A DNA stretch of 64,000 nucleotides from positions 368 to 64,367 of the forward strand of contig CAZXIV010000002.1 in the NCBI GenBank assembly GCA_964640945.1, in the 5' to 3' direction. The stretch comes from an uncultured Candidatus Peribacteria bacterium. Its GTDB lineage: Bacteria; Patescibacteriota; Gracilibacteria; Peribacterales; Peribacteraceae. Made by a program: the position numbers and the translations under genes. Positions 38,256-46,248 of this stretch are shown one piece after another. Under the pieces are notes generated by a model. It did not search any database, was not told the DNA's origin, and saw only the letters and a program-made list of their open reading frames with translations. The first letter of the stretch is position 1. Every line of letters begins with the position of its first letter.

Positions 38256-38330
38256 TGGCAGCCCCACGGGGAATCGAACCCCGATTACAGGAATGAAAAT
38301 CCTGTGTCCTAGCCGTTAGACGATGGGGCC
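38256..38330 (-). tRNA. tRNA-Glu (anticodon UUC), CCA encoded
   Basis: Minus strand GGCCCCATCGTCTAACGGCTAGGACACAGGATTTTCATTCCTGTAATCGGGGTTCGATTCCCCGTGGGGCTGCCA folds as a cloverleaf. It has a 7-bp acceptor stem, the anticodon arm CAGGA-TTTTCAT-TCCTG and the T-arm CGGGG-TTCGATT-CCCCG. Confidence 0.9.
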
Positions 38331-40698: not shown

Positions 40699-41553
40699 TT
40701 AGACTGCTCGCGGCGGCGGGAAGAGCTTTTCGCGTTGTATCCAAAGAGCACTCAATAAGATGCCTCCAAAGAAAATGAGACGGAGTGCGCCCAGCGCGTC
40801 GGGCGAAAGTGGGAGAAGGCGTAAACTCTCTTTAAGAACAATGAGCACTGTCGTCGCAATCGCCACGCCCACTGTGCTACCCGGTCCGCCGGCAACGGTC
40901 ATCATCACGATCAAGATCATAAAGGGAAACGTATAATCGTTCGGGTGCAACAGACGAACATACGGCGGATAAAGAGCTGCCGTCAGCCAGGCACCCGCGC
41001 CAGCCAGCCCGAAGGCGATGGTCGTGACGCGAAAACGGTTGATACCAAGGGCCTCCGCATGTTGCGGCTGCTGCGCCAGCGCCGCCAACGCGCGCCCGAA
41101 GGCGGAGCGTTCTAAGTGCAGGATGAGTACCAGCCAAGCCACAGCCACACCCGCACAGAGCCAGGCGTAGCCCATCGTCGAATCGATGCCGAACGGTCGC
41201 GCAATGCCTGAGATACCAAGCGCCCCGCGGGTGAGTGACATCGAGTTGAGCACTAGGGCGAGCAGGATGAGGTGTAGGGCGATGCTGAGGATGGCGAAGG
41301 CATCCGCCGGCAGACGCACGGCCAGTCGGGCCAAGAAGAGAGAAAAGAGGGCGATCACCAGCAGGCTGAAAGGGATGGTGAGCCAGACGCTCCAGCCGTA
41401 GTAGAGCGGCAAGAAGAGCGAATAAGAGGCGAGCAGGGCCGTGCCTTCTTGGCCGAAGTGGAGAATTTTCCCGCGCCCGAAGACGAGGTTGTAGCCCAGC
41501 ACGATCGGCAGCATGTAGCCGATATTCACGACGATGTGCCAGAAGAAATCCAT
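40699..41553 (-). CDS. livM: branched-chain amino acid ABC transporter permease (LivM type)
   Basis: Start at ATG 41553 ('MDFFWHIVVNIGYMLPIVLGYNLVFGRGKILHFGQEG'), 1 nt after the livH stop. Confidence 0.8.
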   Translation of the reverse strand: MDFFWHIVVNIGYMLPIVLGYNLVFGRGKILHFGQEGTALLASYSLFLPLYYGWSVWLTIPFSLLVIALFSLFLARLAVRLPADAFAILSIALHLILLALVLNSMSLTRGALGISGIARPFGIDSTMGYAWLCAGVAVAWLVLILHLERSAFGRALAALAQQPQHAEALGINRFRVTTIAFGLAGAGAWLTAALYPPYVRLLHPNDYTFPFMILIVMMTVAGGPGSTVGVAIATTVLIVLKESLRLLPLSPDALGALRLIFFGGILLSALWIQREKLFPPPRAV

Positions 41554-41554
41554 C

Positions 41555-42430
41555 TTAGGCGGTGCGGGAAGGAGTGGCGAACAGGCCCGTGGGTTTGAAG
41601 AGCAGGAAGACGATGATAGAGAGGAGCGCGACACTGAACTGGTAGCCCGGCGACAGGTAGCCGACGAGCGGCCACTGGATGCCCACCACCAGCTGCTCAA
41701 GCAGGGCAATGAAATAGGCCGCCAGGATGGCCCCCCAGAAGTTGCCGCGTCCGCCCACGATGACAGCCGCATAGGCCTTGATAGTGAGGGCGAAAGCGAG
41801 CGTGGGCGTGAGCGTCTGGTCGAAGCCGATGAAGAGCCCGCCGCCGGCCGCCAGGACGCCGCTCACCACGAAGATCCAGGCGTGCAGCGCACTAGCCGGA
41901 ATGCCGAGACTCATTGCCGCTTGCGGATGCTGCACCACCGCCCGCAAACGACGCCCCAAGGCCGTAGAATGGAGCACCCACGCAAACACCGCCAGGCCTA
42001 CGAACGTCAGGCTGCAGAGCAAAACATGGTGCCAGCCGAAGCGCGCACCCAAGAAGAGGAATGAGGACTTCACGCCGCTGAGGAGCGTGACGGGCTGTTC
42101 GCCGAACACGAGCAAGATGACGCCATCGAGCACCATCCCCCAGCCGATGGTGGTGACGATGGGAAGGAAGCGATGGCGCCGGTAGAACGGTTTGACGACA
42201 AGTAGGAAGGTGAGCCAGGAGAGTAAAGCGCCGCCGCCGATGCCGCCGAGAATGGCCAGGGGCAGCGGCACGCCCAGTTGCAACAAACGCCAGCAGAGGT
42301 AGCCGCCGATGAGGGCCATCTGGCCAAGCGCCAAATTAAAGACATCGAGAATGCCGTAGACCAACGCTAAGCCGCCGGCCATGAGAGCCAGCAGCGAGCC
42401 AGCGATGAGGGCATTGACGATCAGCTGCAC
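41555..42430 (-). CDS. livH: branched-chain amino acid ABC transporter permease (LivH type)
   Basis: 291 aa. 'MQLIVNALIAGSLLALMAGGLALVYGILDVFNLALGQM' is a typical LivH N-terminus. Confidence 0.85.
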   Translation of the reverse strand: MQLIVNALIAGSLLALMAGGLALVYGILDVFNLALGQMALIGGYLCWRLLQLGVPLPLAILGGIGGGALLSWLTFLLVVKPFYRRHRFLPIVTTIGWGMVLDGVILLVFGEQPVTLLSGVKSSFLFLGARFGWHHVLLCSLTFVGLAVFAWVLHSTALGRRLRAVVQHPQAAMSLGIPASALHAWIFVVSGVLAAGGGLFIGFDQTLTPTLAFALTIKAYAAVIVGGRGNFWGAILAAYFIALLEQLVVGIQWPLVGYLSPGYQFSVALLSIIVFLLFKPTGLFATPSRTA

Positions 42431-42498
42431 GGCGACATTCTAGCCGAAAACGGCGGCCGCCCGGGAGGACGACCGCCGCGACGGGTAGAGGGACGAAA

Positions 42499-43623
42499 TT
42501 ACAGGGCGATATTCTTCACAAACACTGCCTTGCCCGCCTCAAATTTCTTCAGGATGAACGGCACCCCCACGACGTCGCCGTTCTGGTCGAAGTGCCAGTC
42601 GCCGATAACGCCCTGGTAGGACGTCATGGCGGTCAGGCCGTCACGCAGGGCCGTGCCGTCCGTAGCGCCCTTCGTGAGCACCGAGAAGACAGCGCCCGCA
42701 GCGTCATAGGCATGCGCAGCAAAAGCGATGCCCGACTTGGCCGCCCCGAAGGCGGCGACGAAATCCTGCTCAAAGTCTGTCCCCTGACCGGCGGTGGGAA
42801 CGGTCACCAGCTCCATGGCTTCGACTGCCTCCTTGGCATTGCCACCGAGAGTGGCGGAGTCGGCCACTTCGTGCGAGAAGATCGGCTGCTTGAAACCGAG
42901 ATCGCGGAACTGCTGGACCATGGGCGTCATCACACCATCGCCGTTAGCGTTGACGTAGAAGACGTCGAATTCTTGACCCTGCAGGCGGCTGAGCACCGAG
43001 CGGAAATCCTTGGTGCCCGGATCGACAACCTCATCGAAGATGAGCGCACCCGCCGGCAAATCGGTCTTGAGGTGGCTGCGCACGCCCTGGCAGAAGTCGG
43101 TATTTTCACTGAGGACGGCCACCTTCTGGTACCCCTTCTCCGCAAATACCTGCGCCGTCGCAATCGTCTTAAGCGCGTCGCTGGGGTAGTTGCGGAAGAT
43201 GTACGAACCAGCGTTCGTGATATCGGGATTGCTGGAACCAGGCGAGATCACCGGGACCTTGGCAGCCTCGGCGATGGGCGCGATAGCCAGCGTCTCCGAA
43301 CTACAGAGACCGCCGATGATGGCGATGACGTGGTCCACATTGATGAGCTTCTGGGCGGCTGCAGCCGCGTCGGCGCCGTTACAGCGACCGTCCTCGGCGA
43401 TGAGCTGCACCTGCTTACCATTGATGCCGCCCTTGGCGTTCCATTGGTCGACCGCAAGCTGGGCGCCGTGGAGCAAATCGACACCGAGCGAGGCGGTGTC
43501 ACCGGTGAGCGGGCCAACGAAACCGAGCTTGATGACGTCTCCGGTCGGAGTCGGAGTAGTGGCGGACGAGCAAGCGGCAAGTGTCATGGCCGCGAGCAGT
43601 CCCAGAGCGAGAGAGCGCCTCAT
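42499..43623 (-). CDS. ABC transporter substrate-binding lipoprotein (LivK/type 1 periplasmic binding fold)
   Basis: Start at ATG 43623. 'MRRSLALGLLAAMTLAACSS' lipobox, then 'IKLGFVGPLTGDTASLGVDLLHGAQLAVDQWNAKGGINGKQVQL'. Confidence 0.8.
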   Translation of the reverse strand: MRRSLALGLLAAMTLAACSSATTPTPTGDVIKLGFVGPLTGDTASLGVDLLHGAQLAVDQWNAKGGINGKQVQLIAEDGRCNGADAAAAAQKLINVDHVIAIIGGLCSSETLAIAPIAEAAKVPVISPGSSNPDITNAGSYIFRNYPSDALKTIATAQVFAEKGYQKVAVLSENTDFCQGVRSHLKTDLPAGALIFDEVVDPGTKDFRSVLSRLQGQEFDVFYVNANGDGVMTPMVQQFRDLGFKQPIFSHEVADSATLGGNAKEAVEAMELVTVPTAGQGTDFEQDFVAAFGAAKSGIAFAAHAYDAAGAVFSVLTKGATDGTALRDGLTAMTSYQGVIGDWHFDQNGDVVGVPFILKKFEAGKAVFVKNIAL

Positions 43624-43734: not shown

Positions 43735-44160
43735 GTGCCGCTCCTCACGGTCTCCCATCTCTCCCTAACGCTCGGCGGGCAGCAAATCCTGCACGATATC
43801 CGCCTGGAAGCGGAGGCCGGCGAAGTGGTGGGTCTCATCGGCCCCAACGGCTCGGGCAAGACGACGCTCTTCAACATCCTCTCGGGCTTCCTCCAACCCG
43901 ATAGCGGGACGGTGCATTTCCACGACCACGACATCACACGCCTCTCCCCCGCCAAGCGCGCGCGACTGGGCATCGGCCGCGTCTTCCAGAATTTCGGCAT
44001 CTTCCGCGAGATGACGCTCCGCGAGAACGTGCTGGTAGCGCTCGAAAGCTTAAGCAAAGAAGAGCGTTTCAAACTCGACGACCTGCACCACGCTGTCCAC
44101 GAAACGCTCAGCATGGTGGGCCTGGAGCACCACGCCAATAAGAAAGCGAACAGCCGCTAT
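43735..44160 (+). pseudogene. 3'-truncated LivG-like ABC ATPase remnant
   Basis: GTG 43735. 'GLIGPNGSGKTTLFNILSGF' (Walker A) and 'RVFQN' (Q-loop) are present. No LSGGQ signature or Walker B appears in any frame. Homology is lost near 44150, where hairpins and a terminator begin. Confidence 0.6.
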
Positions 44161-44191
44161 GACACCGGCGCGGTGTCGAACTCCCATCACA

Positions 44192-44224
44192 AACCCCTCT
44201 GCTCAGGCGGAGGGGTTCTTTTTT
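44192..44224 (+). terminator. rho-independent terminator
   Basis: AACCCCTC-loop-GAGGGGTT followed by CTTTTTT. Confidence 0.7.
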
Positions 44225-44243
44225 ATGCCAAAAAAACACGCGT

Positions 44244-44438
44244 AAAAAAAGCCCCTCTCAGGGCTTTCGGAGTCCGCGGCGCGAAAACCCGGATGATGAC
44301 GGCGCGGTCGATTGCGCCTGAGAGGGGGGGTCGGATCAGGCCGCCGAGGCGGCCTGACCTAAAGTTTATCGAGGAGCTTTTTCACCTCGATCTCCTTATG
44401 CTGGAGAAACTCCTGTTCCGGGCTACACACCCGGGAAC
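44244..44438 (-). ncRNA. candidate structured small RNA (~195 nt), family unknown
   Basis: Bounded by promoter 44445-44472 and a 3' long stem (44252-44262 pairs with 44317-44327) plus U-tract. Internal hairpins include GGTCAGGCCGCC-TCGG-GGCGGCCTGATC. No credible ORF. Confidence 0.5.
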
Positions 44439-44444
44439 AAGCTC

Positions 44445-44472
44445 ATTCTAACCAACCTTAGATACTTGTCAA
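44445..44472 (-). promoter_or_regulatory. near-consensus promoter TTGACA-N16-TAGAAT with an AT-rich upstream element
   Basis: Read on the minus strand just downstream of the pyrG stop. The hexamers are identical to those of the rplJ promoter. Confidence 0.6.
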
Positions 44473-44505
44473 TAGTTGATTATATTTTTAAATATACGTT
44501 AGGTT

Positions 44506-46248
<1,743 letters not shown>

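What the first reader, a model, noticed from the sequence alone, without database searches (positions are those of the whole stretch)
44244..44472. Orphan near-consensus promoter driving a ~195-nt highly structured RNA with its own terminator, downstream of pyrG
On the minus strand, 34 nt after the pyrG stop and following an AT-rich tract, lies TTGACA-N16-TAGAAT (44472-44445). These are the same two hexamers as in the ribosomal rplJ promoter.

The downstream ~195 nt contain no plausible ORF. The longest, behind a GGAG, is 8 codons (MKKLLDKL). They do fold into a series of stable hairpins:
- GTTCCCGGG-N7-CCCGGAAC
- GGAG-TTT-CTCC
- ATCGAGG-N10-CCTCGAT
- a 10-11 bp stem with a UCGG tetraloop (GGTCAGGCCGCC-TCGG-GGCGGCCTGATC)
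- a long-range 11-bp stem (44327-44317 pairing with 44262-44252) enclosing further helices, followed by seven U residues

The next minus-strand gene is more than 600 nt away, beyond the terminator, so this is not a 5' leader. The size and promoter strength fit a housekeeping-type RNA. 6S is the obvious size match, but I cannot fit it to 6S, SRP, tmRNA or RNase P features by eye. It may be an undescribed RNA family.
Basis: seen in the sequence. Interest (0 to 1): 0.7.

Follow-up and report, generated by a model that had tools for sequence, protein, structure and literature searches.

The report
Conserved eight-codon mini-gene after pyrG

Summary
**Observation.** It is confirmed, minus strand throughout. 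The promoter TTGACA-N16-TAGAAT lies at 44472-44445, a chain of hairpins follows, and an 11-bp stem plus seven U ends the unit at 44244. The fold is more stable than shuffles (z = -4.7). Rfam and ARAGORN find nothing.

**Origin.** The window is Candidatus Peribacteria (candidate phyla radiation, CPR).

**What is conserved.**
- Two relatives with about 90% identical PyrG carry the same unit right after pyrG. It has a perfect -35 box, a 5'-terminal CCCGG hairpin, a Shine-Dalgarno (SD) site, an 8-codon ORF, a hairpin at the stop and a long terminator.
- Only the ORF aligns by BLAST: MKKLLDKL, MKKILNKL and MKKLLDHL.
- All 9 variable ORF sites avoid second codon positions (p = 0.009). Start, length and stop are kept.
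- A pattern scan found the same ORF in Candidatus Collierbacteria and in an unidentified low-GC lineage. These copies also have a TTGACA promoter and a CU-rich box before the SD.

**Distribution.** The unit is patchy. It is absent at this locus in relatives with 77-78% identical PyrG. Here it sits where the 3' half of an ABC ATPase gene was lost.

**Mechanism.** Constrained folds show no antiterminator.

**Verdict.** This is a stand-alone, strongly promoted mini-mRNA for a conserved octapeptide. Its function is unknown. It is not a 6S, SRP or RNase P type RNA.

The parts
44473..44500 (-). AT-rich tract upstream of the -35 box; possibly an UP element
   Evidence: Read directly from the sequence. 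The role as an UP element is inferred.
44445..44472 (-). Sigma-70-type promoter TTGACA-N16-TAGAAT
   Evidence: It is an 11/12 match to consensus. All seven family members have a perfect TTGACA, a 16-17 nt spacer and a TAnnnT -10 hexamer.
44415..44438 (-). 5'-terminal hairpin GUUCCCGGG-N7-CCCGGAAC, starting about 7 nt after the -10 hexamer
   Evidence: Present in the MFE fold. L087 and L088 have a 5'-terminal CCCGG hairpin at the same place with different sequence. A role as a 5' stabiliser is inferred.
44403..44413 (-). GGAG-UUU-CUCC. The CU-rich box UCUCC (44407-44403) can pair either with the upstream GGAG or with the Shine-Dalgarno site.
   Evidence: A CU-rich box 5-8 nt upstream of the SD is present in all 7 members. 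The anti-SD:SD helix forms in 88.6% of cells, against 38-76% when the partner is slid.
44392..44397 (-). Shine-Dalgarno site AAGGAG, 6 nt before the start codon
   Evidence: conserved in all members.
44359..44385 (-). Micro-ORF GTG AAA AAG CTC CTC GAT AAA CTT TAG = MKKLLDKL*
   Evidence: It is the only BLAST-alignable segment between relatives. Substitutions follow a coding pattern, with 0 of 9 variable sites at second codon positions (p = 0.0087). The same peptide frame occurs in L118, L120, L124 and L128.
44368..44391 (-). Hairpin AUCGAGG-N10-CCUCGAU, which encloses the start codon and codons 4-6
   Evidence: Present in the MFE fold. L087 has the analogous pairing GAGGAU/AUCCUC.
44334..44359 (-). 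11-bp GC-rich hairpin (loop CUCG) that begins at the last base of the stop codon
   Evidence: A perfect hairpin abutting the stop is seen in all six Peribacteria mini-ORF units and in L124.
44244..44328 (-). Long irregular terminator hairpin (closing stem 44327-44317 with 44262-44252) followed by U7 (44250-44244)
   Evidence: The base CCCCCUC...GAGGGGGC plus U-run is conserved in L087 and L088. It stays intact in folds with a ribosome at the stop in 5 of 6 units.
44192..44224 (+). Convergent plus-strand intrinsic terminator AACCCCTCTGC-TCAG-GCGGAGGGGTT plus a T-run
   Evidence: Found. A homologous convergent terminator sits at the same relative place in L087 (read from the sequence).
43735..44154 (+). 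5' fragment (codons 1-140) of a LivG/F-type ABC ATPase gene, cut just before the LSGGQ signature. It is context, not part of the unit.
   Evidence: Pfam ABC_tran matches profile positions 1-105 of 137 only. It is 65% identical to the intact L141 orthologue over residues 1-140, then similarity stops. No remnant of the C-terminal half exists in any frame.

Best explanation
This is a self-contained, strongly promoted mini-mRNA, and its selected feature is translation of an 8-codon ORF with consensus M-K-K-(L/I)-L-(D/N)-x-L-stop.

**Steps read from the sequence (transcription itself is not shown)**
- Transcription starts about 7 nt after TAGAAT.
- The first 24 nt fold into a 5'-terminal hairpin.
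- A CU-rich box can close the Shine-Dalgarno site, and a second hairpin encloses the start codon. Initiation therefore looks gated.
- The ORF ends exactly where an 11-bp GC hairpin begins.
- A long hairpin plus U7 terminates the transcript about 195 nt from its start.

**Steps that are inferred**
- The hairpins serve as stabilisers and as the terminator. They do not form a switch for a downstream gene.
- The functional output is the octapeptide or the act of making it. The peptide could act in trans. It could also act on the ribosome that makes it.

What the peptide does is unknown. The unit behaves like a small, gain-and-loss-prone cassette in an insertion hot spot next to pyrG. It does not behave like a housekeeping gene.
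For: **Promoter, hairpins and terminator**
- They are present as described, and the fold is more stable than shuffles.

**Homologous units found by synteny alone**
- L087 and L088 were found by position after pyrG, not by pattern. They keep promoter, 5' hairpin, SD, an 8-codon ORF, a hairpin at the stop and the terminator.
- BLAST aligns only the ORF.
- Pairwise identity in this trio:
  - ORF 70-74%
  - 5' UTR 45-51%
  - 3' part 57-63%
- Variable ORF sites by codon position are 4/0/5, and P = 0.0087 that 9 variable sites all miss second positions.
- Start codons are GTG or ATG and stops are TAG or TGA, but the length is always 8 codons. The peptides are MKKLLDKL, MKKILNKL and MKKLLDHL.

**The same ORF in other lineages**
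- It occurs in Candidatus Collierbacteria (L124) and in a low-GC lineage (L118/L121, L120 with three copies, L128).
- Leu and Ile codons differ there (CTT, CTG, ATA). The conserved CUCCUC of the Peribacteria copies is therefore not the selected feature.
- These copies share two features that were not in the search pattern:
  - a perfect TTGACA promoter 50-120 nt upstream
  - a (G)GTTCTTCT / TTTCTCC box before the SD

**Independence from the downstream gene**
- L087 keeps the unit but has no ABC or liv genes.
- The terminator survives a ribosome placed at the stop codon in 5 of 6 units.

**No known RNA family**
- Rfam, tmRNA and tRNA searches are negative.
Against: - Only three sequences are free of ascertainment bias. 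The metagenome members were found with a pattern that itself imposed the peptide, so their codon pattern is partly circular.
- There are no expression or ribosome-occupancy data.
- In the MFE folds both the SD and the start codon are paired, so translation may be inefficient.
- Neighbouring units in L088 and L089 have the same build but unrelated 4-5-codon ORFs: MKRLT, M(L)KNA and MKKAL. The architecture may therefore matter more than the peptide.
- I know of no directly translated 8-residue bacterial peptide with a function other than cis-regulatory or cis-ribosomal roles (my own knowledge).
- In the low-GC lineage the ORF lies upstream of large secreted-protein genes. That position fits a leader.
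- The 13 contigs of this species are 100% identical, so they add no information.
Confidence: 0.5

Rival explanations
1. It is a cis-regulatory leader. The micro-ORF would be a regulatory or arrest peptide whose translation status controls read-through or downstream expression. In the window the target would be the livK-H-M operon 620 nt on; in the low-GC lineage, the dockerin-type secreted proteins. Ligand- or antibiotic-sensing short leaders work this way.
For: - Most known conserved ORFs of 10 codons or fewer are leader peptides (own knowledge).
- The micro-ORF lies upstream of, and in the same direction as, large genes in L118, L120 and L128. In the window it points the same way as livK.
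- A terminator follows directly.
- With a ribosome at the stop, the fold of the window copy does lose the long terminator stem.
- The peptide has D followed by K, H, R or G at positions 6-7. ErmBL stalls with Asp10 in the P site (PMC4935803).
Against: - The terminator is unaffected by ribosome position in 5 of 6 Peribacteria units.
- L087 keeps the unit with no liv genes downstream.
- In the window the intervening 600 nt is antisense to a gene fragment, faces a convergent terminator, and livK has its own promoter-like sites.
- There is no resistance gene nearby and no downstream SD sequestered by the leader.
- Three tandem copies in L120 are odd for an attenuator.
Confidence: 0.2
2. It is a purely non-coding structured sRNA. 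The SD/AUG-like segment would be a protein- or RNA-binding site, and the ORF would be incidental.
For: - The fold is very stable (z = -4.66).
- It has its own promoter and terminator.
- The 5' hairpin, the post-stop hairpin and the terminator recur with different sequences in relatives.
- The 3' part is 57-63% identical in the trio.
- The SD and start codon are paired in the MFE structures.
Against: - No Rfam family matches even at E < 10.
- No convincing covariation was found. RNAalifold supports only the terminator base.
- Conservation follows codon phase. ORF length, start and stop are kept while the surrounding sequence diverges.
- Across lineages only the SD-plus-ORF module of about 55 nt is shared. 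The 5' UTR varies from 52 to 119 nt and the 3' part from a terminator to about 500 nt of other RNA.
Confidence: 0.15
3. It has no cellular function. It would be a leftover or selfish promoter-terminator cassette in a recombination hot spot, with hairpins that are just terminators and GC-rich filler.
For: - The distribution is patchy. The unit is absent at this locus in L141, L143, L007, L008 and L089.
- It lies at a deletion junction that truncated an ABC ATPase gene.
- Mobile genes sit at the same spot in relatives: GIY-YIG in L141 and a transposase-like ORF in L007.
- L120 carries tandem copies.
Against: - The unit survives between genomes whose PyrG genes differ by about 10% in protein and 16-20% in DNA, with a coding-type substitution pattern.
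- The same 8-codon ORF with promoter, CU box and SD recurs in different CPR classes.
- No similar DNA was found in phage or plasmid collections.
Confidence: 0.1

Closest known systems
Ribosome-dependent attenuator transcripts with a leader peptide that also act on their own (Sinorhizobium rnTrpL / peTrpL; PMC6614838, PMC7968998)
   Same: Both are short transcripts with an SD, a very short conserved ORF and an intrinsic terminator. In that system the released RNA and the 14-aa leader peptide both have trans functions. It shows that a leader-like unit can be a gene in its own right.
   Different: - There are no Trp or other obvious regulatory codons.
- There is no antiterminator alternative in 5 of 6 units.
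- There is no biosynthetic operon downstream.
- The peptide has 8 residues, not 14.
- No conserved base-pairing seed was found.
Short antibiotic-sensing arrest leaders (ermBL, PMC4935803; from my own knowledge also ermAL1, catA86L, cmlAL and msrDL)
   Same: Both are ORFs of 5-10 codons whose amino-acid sequence, not only their length, is conserved. Both have a strong SD. An Asp followed by a basic residue is the stall site in ErmBL. They are portable modules found in front of different genes.
   Different: - No resistance gene follows.
- No downstream SD is held in a hairpin with the leader.
- The residue before Asp is Leu.
- Stalling is untested.
Minigenes of 3-8 codons (lambda bar type; PMC2490762, PMC8708949)
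   Same: Both combine a strong SD with an ORF of at most 8 codons and an early stop. Translation of such units loads the cell with peptidyl-tRNA and can modulate translation.
   Different: For bar-type minigenes codon identity and length matter, not a conserved peptide (own knowledge). Here the peptide is conserved across lineages, and the unit has its own promoter, stabilising hairpins and terminator.
6S RNA (Rfam RF00013)
   Same: It is similar in size (about 190 nt), has a strong promoter and is an independent gene.
   Different: - There is no covariance-model match.
- The fold is a row of hairpins, not a rod with a central bubble.
- It carries a conserved ORF.
- Its distribution is patchy.

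Membership tests
6S RNA | Match to the Rfam 6S covariance model | tested here: not met
   No hit at gathering score in the window. No hit at E <= 10 in 44100-44560.
6S RNA | Long, largely closed rod with a central bubble that mimics an open promoter | tested here: not met
   The MFE and centroid folds show five separate hairpins plus a weak closing helix.
SRP RNA / tmRNA / RNase P RNA | Match to the Rfam models, or to ARAGORN for tmRNA | tested here: not met
   The only RNA gene found in the window is tRNA-Glu at 38256-38330.
Ribosome-dependent transcription attenuator (trpL type) | SD-led short ORF directly upstream of an intrinsic terminator | tested here: met
Ribosome-dependent transcription attenuator (trpL type) | Alternative antiterminator pairing that depends on ribosome position | tested here: not met
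   In constrained folds with a ribosome at the stop, the terminator stays intact in 5 of 6 Peribacteria units. Only the window copy changes.
Ribosome-dependent transcription attenuator (trpL type) | A regulated gene immediately downstream on the same strand, conserved with the leader | tested here: not met
   In the window, 620 nt of antisense gene fragment precede livK. L087 has the unit but no liv genes.
Drug- or ligand-sensing arrest leader peptide (erm/cat type) | Short ORF with a conserved amino-acid sequence | tested here: met
   M-K-K-(L/I)-L-(D/N)-x-L occurs in 7 sequences from at least 3 lineages.
Drug- or ligand-sensing arrest leader peptide (erm/cat type) | Downstream resistance or target gene whose SD is sequestered by pairing with the leader | tested here: not met
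   No such gene or pairing is present in the window, L087 or L088.
Drug- or ligand-sensing arrest leader peptide (erm/cat type) | Ribosome stalling at a defined codon | not testable with these tools
   This needs toeprinting or ribosome profiling.
Dual-function sRNA (sORF plus base-pairing RNA) | Own promoter and terminator, plus an sORF conserved at the peptide level | tested here: met
   This rests on sequence only; there are no transcript data.
Dual-function sRNA (sORF plus base-pairing RNA) | Conserved single-stranded seed outside the ORF | tested here: not met
   Outside the CU box, SD and ORF, nothing is conserved across lineages.
ABC transporter ATPase (the 238-aa gene call that covers the element on the + strand) | Walker A and Q-loop | tested here: met
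   GPNGSGKTT is present, and Pfam ABC_tran matches profile positions 1-105.
ABC transporter ATPase (the 238-aa gene call that covers the element on the + strand) | LSGGQ signature, Walker B and H-loop | tested here: not met
   Similarity to the intact orthologue stops at residue 140, just before LSGGQ. The rest is absent in all frames.

The most novel reading that the evidence does not exclude
MKK(L/I)L(D/N)xL units would be a portable family of ribosome-directed octapeptide mini-genes in CPR bacteria. In one version the nascent peptide acts on the ribosome that makes it, sensing or displacing a tunnel- or PTC-binding small molecule as resistance pentapeptides and erm/cat leaders do. In the other it is a trans-acting micropeptide. 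The RNA hairpins would only provide stability and gating. That would make it one of the shortest conserved stand-alone genes known, and specific to ultra-small symbiotic bacteria.
Probability: 0.15. Interest if true: 0.8.

Novelty: new variant of a known kind. Interest (0 to 1): 0.55.

Why it matters
- If the octapeptide ORF is translated, this is a conserved 8-codon stand-alone gene shared by distant CPR lineages (Peribacteria and Collierbacteria). These organisms have about 1-Mb genomes, where little is expected to be dispensable.
- It would add a new class to the short list of functional ORFs of 10 codons or fewer. It would also give a concrete, easily synthesised object for testing ribosome-nascent-peptide effects: 27 nt, or an 8-mer peptide.
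- There is a practical lesson as well. Gene callers hide the element under a false 238-aa 'ABC ATPase' ORF. RNA-motif thinking dismisses the ORF as too short.

Tried and rejected
**Searches that found nothing useful**
- I used the antisense 99-aa translation of the element as a protein query, hoping to find relatives through spurious gene calls. It returned only a 19-residue overlap on a 1.1-kb contig.
- A viral-contig scan with a looser ORF pattern gave 28 hits. All were chance matches inside one conserved marine-phage gene or at ordinary gene starts.
- Of the 19 loci from the metagenome scan, 14 were rejected for the same reasons. They had TGG instead of a stop, lay inside coding sequence, or both.
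- GTDB relatives found through PyrG (L007, L008) lack the element. A transposase-like ORF or pyrD follows pyrG there.
- Exact-protein look-ups with PyrG and with the 83-aa neighbour gave only contigs that are 100% identical in the RNA region. There is no within-species variation to use.
- BLAST against phage and plasmid collections found nothing.
- A literature search for the octapeptides found nothing.

**Analyses that were uninformative**
- RNAalifold on the 3' parts of the three Peribacteria copies rested on a poor alignment. Only the terminator base was supported.

**Ideas considered and dropped**
- Decayed 3' half of the ABC gene: no remnant exists in any frame.
- Leu-codon attenuator for the liv operon: the unit persists without liv genes.
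- CsrA-type sponge: too few GGA motifs in loops.
- Retron, omega-RNA or DGR RNA: no partner gene is present.

Full report
**1. What is in the sequence**

On the minus strand, pyrG (46182..44506) ends and is followed by an AT-rich tract. The promoter TTGACA-N16-TAGAAT lies at 44472-44445. It is an 11/12 match and the best site in the 3.5 kb scanned. The same hexamers and spacing stand in front of rplJ/rplL at +5813.

From about 44438 the RNA can form the following elements:
- a 5'-terminal hairpin (44438-44415)
- GGAG-UUU-CUCC (44413-44403)
- the SD AAGGAG (44397-44392)
- a hairpin enclosing the start codon (44391-44368)
- an 11-bp GC hairpin that begins at the last base of the stop codon (44359-44334, loop CUCG)
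- a long irregular hairpin closed by 44327-44317 with 44262-44252, followed by U7 (44250-44244)

The MFE is -94.2 kcal/mol against -72.2 +/- 4.7 for shuffles, z = -4.66. Rfam gives nothing at gathering score in the whole window except a tRNA. It gives nothing meaningful at E <= 10 in 44100-44560. ARAGORN finds no tmRNA.

**2. The other strand**

Gene callers annotate a 238-aa 'ABC_tran' protein at 43735-44451(+), antisense to the whole element. Only residues 1-140 are ABC-like.
- Pfam matches ABC_tran profile positions 1-105 of 137.
- An intact orthologue from a relative (L141, 245 aa) aligns at 65% identity over residues 1-140. The match stops exactly before LSGGQ.
- No remnant of the C-terminal half exists in any frame.

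A plus-strand terminator (44192-44217) follows the fragment. The ABC gene is therefore truncated at about 44155, and the rest of the 'ORF' is read-through across the RNA gene.

**3. Organism and relatives**

The closest PyrG proteins in the species-level genome set are from uncultured Candidatus Peribacteria, at 75% and 69% identity. Thirteen Logan contigs of the same species are 100% identical over the element.

I fetched three clusters with 89-91% PyrG identity.
- In L087 and L088 the region right after pyrG carries the same kind of unit. It has:
  - a promoter TTGACA-N16-TATAAT or TATGAT
  - a 5'-terminal CCCGG hairpin
  - an SD
  - an 8-codon ORF
  - a hairpin at the stop
  - a long terminator whose base, CCCCCUC...GAGGGGGC plus U-run, is conserved
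- BLAST aligns only the ORF between these units.
- L089 lacks the octapeptide unit in the 970 nt available. It has a unit of the same build with a 5-codon ORF.

**4. The ORF is the conserved part**

| Source | Sequence | Peptide |
|---|---|---|
| Window | GTG AAA AAG CTC CTC GAT AAA CTT TAG | MKKLLDKL |
| L087 | ATG AAG AAA ATC CTC AAC AAG CTC TAG | MKKILNKL |
| L088 | GTG AAG AAG CTC CTC GAC CAT CTC TGA | MKKLLDHL |

These three were found by synteny, not by pattern.
- Their nine variable sites fall 4/0/5 on codon positions 1/2/3. The chance that all nine miss second positions is 0.0087.
- Start, length and stop position are kept, although the start and stop codons themselves differ.
- Pairwise identity is 70-74% for the ORF, 45-51% for the 5' UTR and 57-63% for the 3' part.

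**5. Wider distribution**

I scanned metagenome contigs for an SD plus the degenerate ORF and obtained 19 loci. Fourteen are chance matches in or at the start of ordinary genes. Five are intergenic units:

| Locus | Peptide | GC |
|---|---|---|
| L118 = L121 | MKKLLDRL | 0.43-0.44 |
| L120 | MKKLLDGL, three tandem copies | 0.45 |
| L128 | MKKLLDGL | 0.42 |
| L124 | MKKILDHL | 0.41 |

L124 is Candidatus Collierbacteria. Its PBP2 is 66% identical to that of Collierbacteria GW2011_GWB1_44_6. The lineage of L118, L120 and L128 could not be identified.

The search pattern forced the peptide, so the codon pattern of these hits is not independent evidence. Three other features were not in the pattern:
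- All have a perfect TTGACA, a 16-17 nt spacer and a TAnnnT hexamer 50-120 nt upstream.
- All have a CU-rich box just before the SD:
  - TGGTTCTTCT in both L118 and L124
  - TTTCTCC in the window
  - TTTTCC in L087
- Their Leu and Ile codons differ (CTT, CTG, ATA). The CUCCUC string of the Peribacteria copies is therefore not what is conserved.

The CU box can pair with the SD in 88.6% of cells, against 38-76% for slid controls. This support is modest and mostly one-sided. Pyrimidine-rich leaders can also act as translational enhancers (own knowledge).

**6. Is it a leader of something?**

In Peribacteria the content downstream of the unit is not conserved:
- The window has the ABC fragment and livK-H-M.
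- L087 has about 700 nt of other non-coding elements and no liv genes.
- Relatives with 77-78% PyrG identity (L141, L143) have pyrG facing an intact ABC ATPase gene and no micro-ORF unit. L143 has only 120 nt between the two genes.

The unit therefore sits in a variable hot spot. L141 has a GIY-YIG gene there and L007 a transposase-like ORF. In the window's lineage a deletion fused the unit's neighbourhood to codon 140 of the ABC gene.

I folded the RNAs with the region around the stop codon held single-stranded, to mimic a terminating ribosome. The terminator stayed intact in 5 of 6 Peribacteria mini-ORF units, and only the window copy rearranged. There is thus no conserved antiterminator logic.

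In the low-GC lineage the ORF copies do lie upstream of large dockerin-type secreted-protein genes. In L124 the ORF sits about 130 nt into a roughly 600-nt strongly structured non-coding stretch (z = -7.45). A leader role in those lineages cannot be excluded.

**7. Interpretation**

The best-supported reading is a stand-alone, strongly promoted and structurally stabilised mini-mRNA whose selected feature is the translated octapeptide ORF.
- Read from the sequence: the promoter, SD, ORF, hairpins, terminator, conservation pattern and patchy distribution.
- Inferred: that it is transcribed and translated, that the hairpins act as stabilisers and a gate, and that the peptide or its synthesis is the functional output.
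- Unknown: what the peptide does. Candidate roles are an effect on the translating ribosome, a trans-acting micropeptide, or a portable sensor.

Rivals are a cis-acting leader or arrest sensor (0.2), a pure structured ncRNA (0.15) and a functionless cassette (0.1).

**8. Comparison with known systems**

- It works most like leader-peptide transcripts that have become genes in their own right (rnTrpL/peTrpL; PMC6614838, PMC7968998).
- It resembles short arrest leaders in having a conserved peptide with Asp followed by a basic residue (ErmBL; PMC4935803).
- It has the anatomy of a minigene (PMC2490762).
- It fails the defining tests for an attenuator (no antiterminator, no conserved downstream gene), for erm/cat-type leaders (no target gene) and for 6S, SRP, tmRNA and RNase P.
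- No paper in the searchable library mentions the peptides.

I rate it a new variant of a known kind, of moderate interest. The evidence base is small: three unbiased sequences, and seven distinct sequences in all counting one copy per locus.

Noticed in passing
window 43735-44451 (+): A LivG/F-type ABC ATPase gene is truncated after codon 140, just before LSGGQ. It stays open for 98 more codons across the RNA gene, so pipelines call a false 238-aa 'ABC_tran' protein. Its partners livK-H-M (43623..40699, minus strand) look intact, but no ATPase gene is left in the cluster.
   Followed up: yes
window 44157-44231 (+): Two hairpins plus a T-run form a convergent terminator 20 nt from the end of the micro-ORF unit. 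There is a weak, sub-threshold Rfam resemblance to suhB/mmgR (19.7 bits, E = 0.11). L087 has a homologous convergent terminator at the same relative position, so an unknown opposite-strand transcript probably once ended here.
   Followed up: partly
L088 3590-3760 and 4100-4250; L089 1990-2150: Further mini-ORF units of the same build occur next to, or instead of, the octapeptide unit. Each has an SD, 4-5 codons (MKRLT*, M(L)KNA*, MKKAL*), a perfect hairpin abutting the stop and a long terminator. This suggests a diversified family of such cassettes in Peribacteria.
   Followed up: partly
L087 8403-8418; L089 2529-2544; L141 13506-13521: The motif AAGGGGGTGATC(C/A)AT is conserved in the non-coding island after pyrG. 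It is a near-perfect complement of the 16S rRNA 3' end, a 'super Shine-Dalgarno'. It lies inside 20-21-codon ORFs in two loci but is out of frame in the third, so it looks like a nucleotide-level element. It is not present in the window.
   Followed up: partly
L137 4400-6400; L138 2900-5450; L139 4980-5580; L140 2400-3260; L124 300-950: In Candidatus Collierbacteria the mrdA-topA gap (1.1-2.6 kb, no called genes) holds one to three tandem units. Each has a TTGACA-N17-TATATT promoter, often a 5' CUC-GAAA-GAG hairpin, a GC-enriched structured RNA of about 550-650 nt and a terminator. There is no Rfam hit and no sequence similarity between units. This may be an undescribed class of large RNAs.
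   Followed up: partly
L120 3850-3380 (minus strand): The micro-ORF and about 165 nt of downstream sequence are repeated three times in tandem. The repeats lie between one promoter and a 940-aa dockerin-type secreted-protein gene.
   Followed up: partly
L141 11784-12155; L007 5093-5990: Mobile-type genes sit directly after pyrG in other Peribacteria: a GIY-YIG nuclease in L141 and a transposase-like ORF in L007. The 3' side of pyrG seems to be an insertion and rearrangement hot spot.
   Followed up: no
window 5813-5840 (+): A second TTGACA-N16-TAGAAT promoter stands in front of a structured leader and rplJ-rplL (5991-7097). No Rfam L10-leader match reached the gathering score.
   Followed up: no
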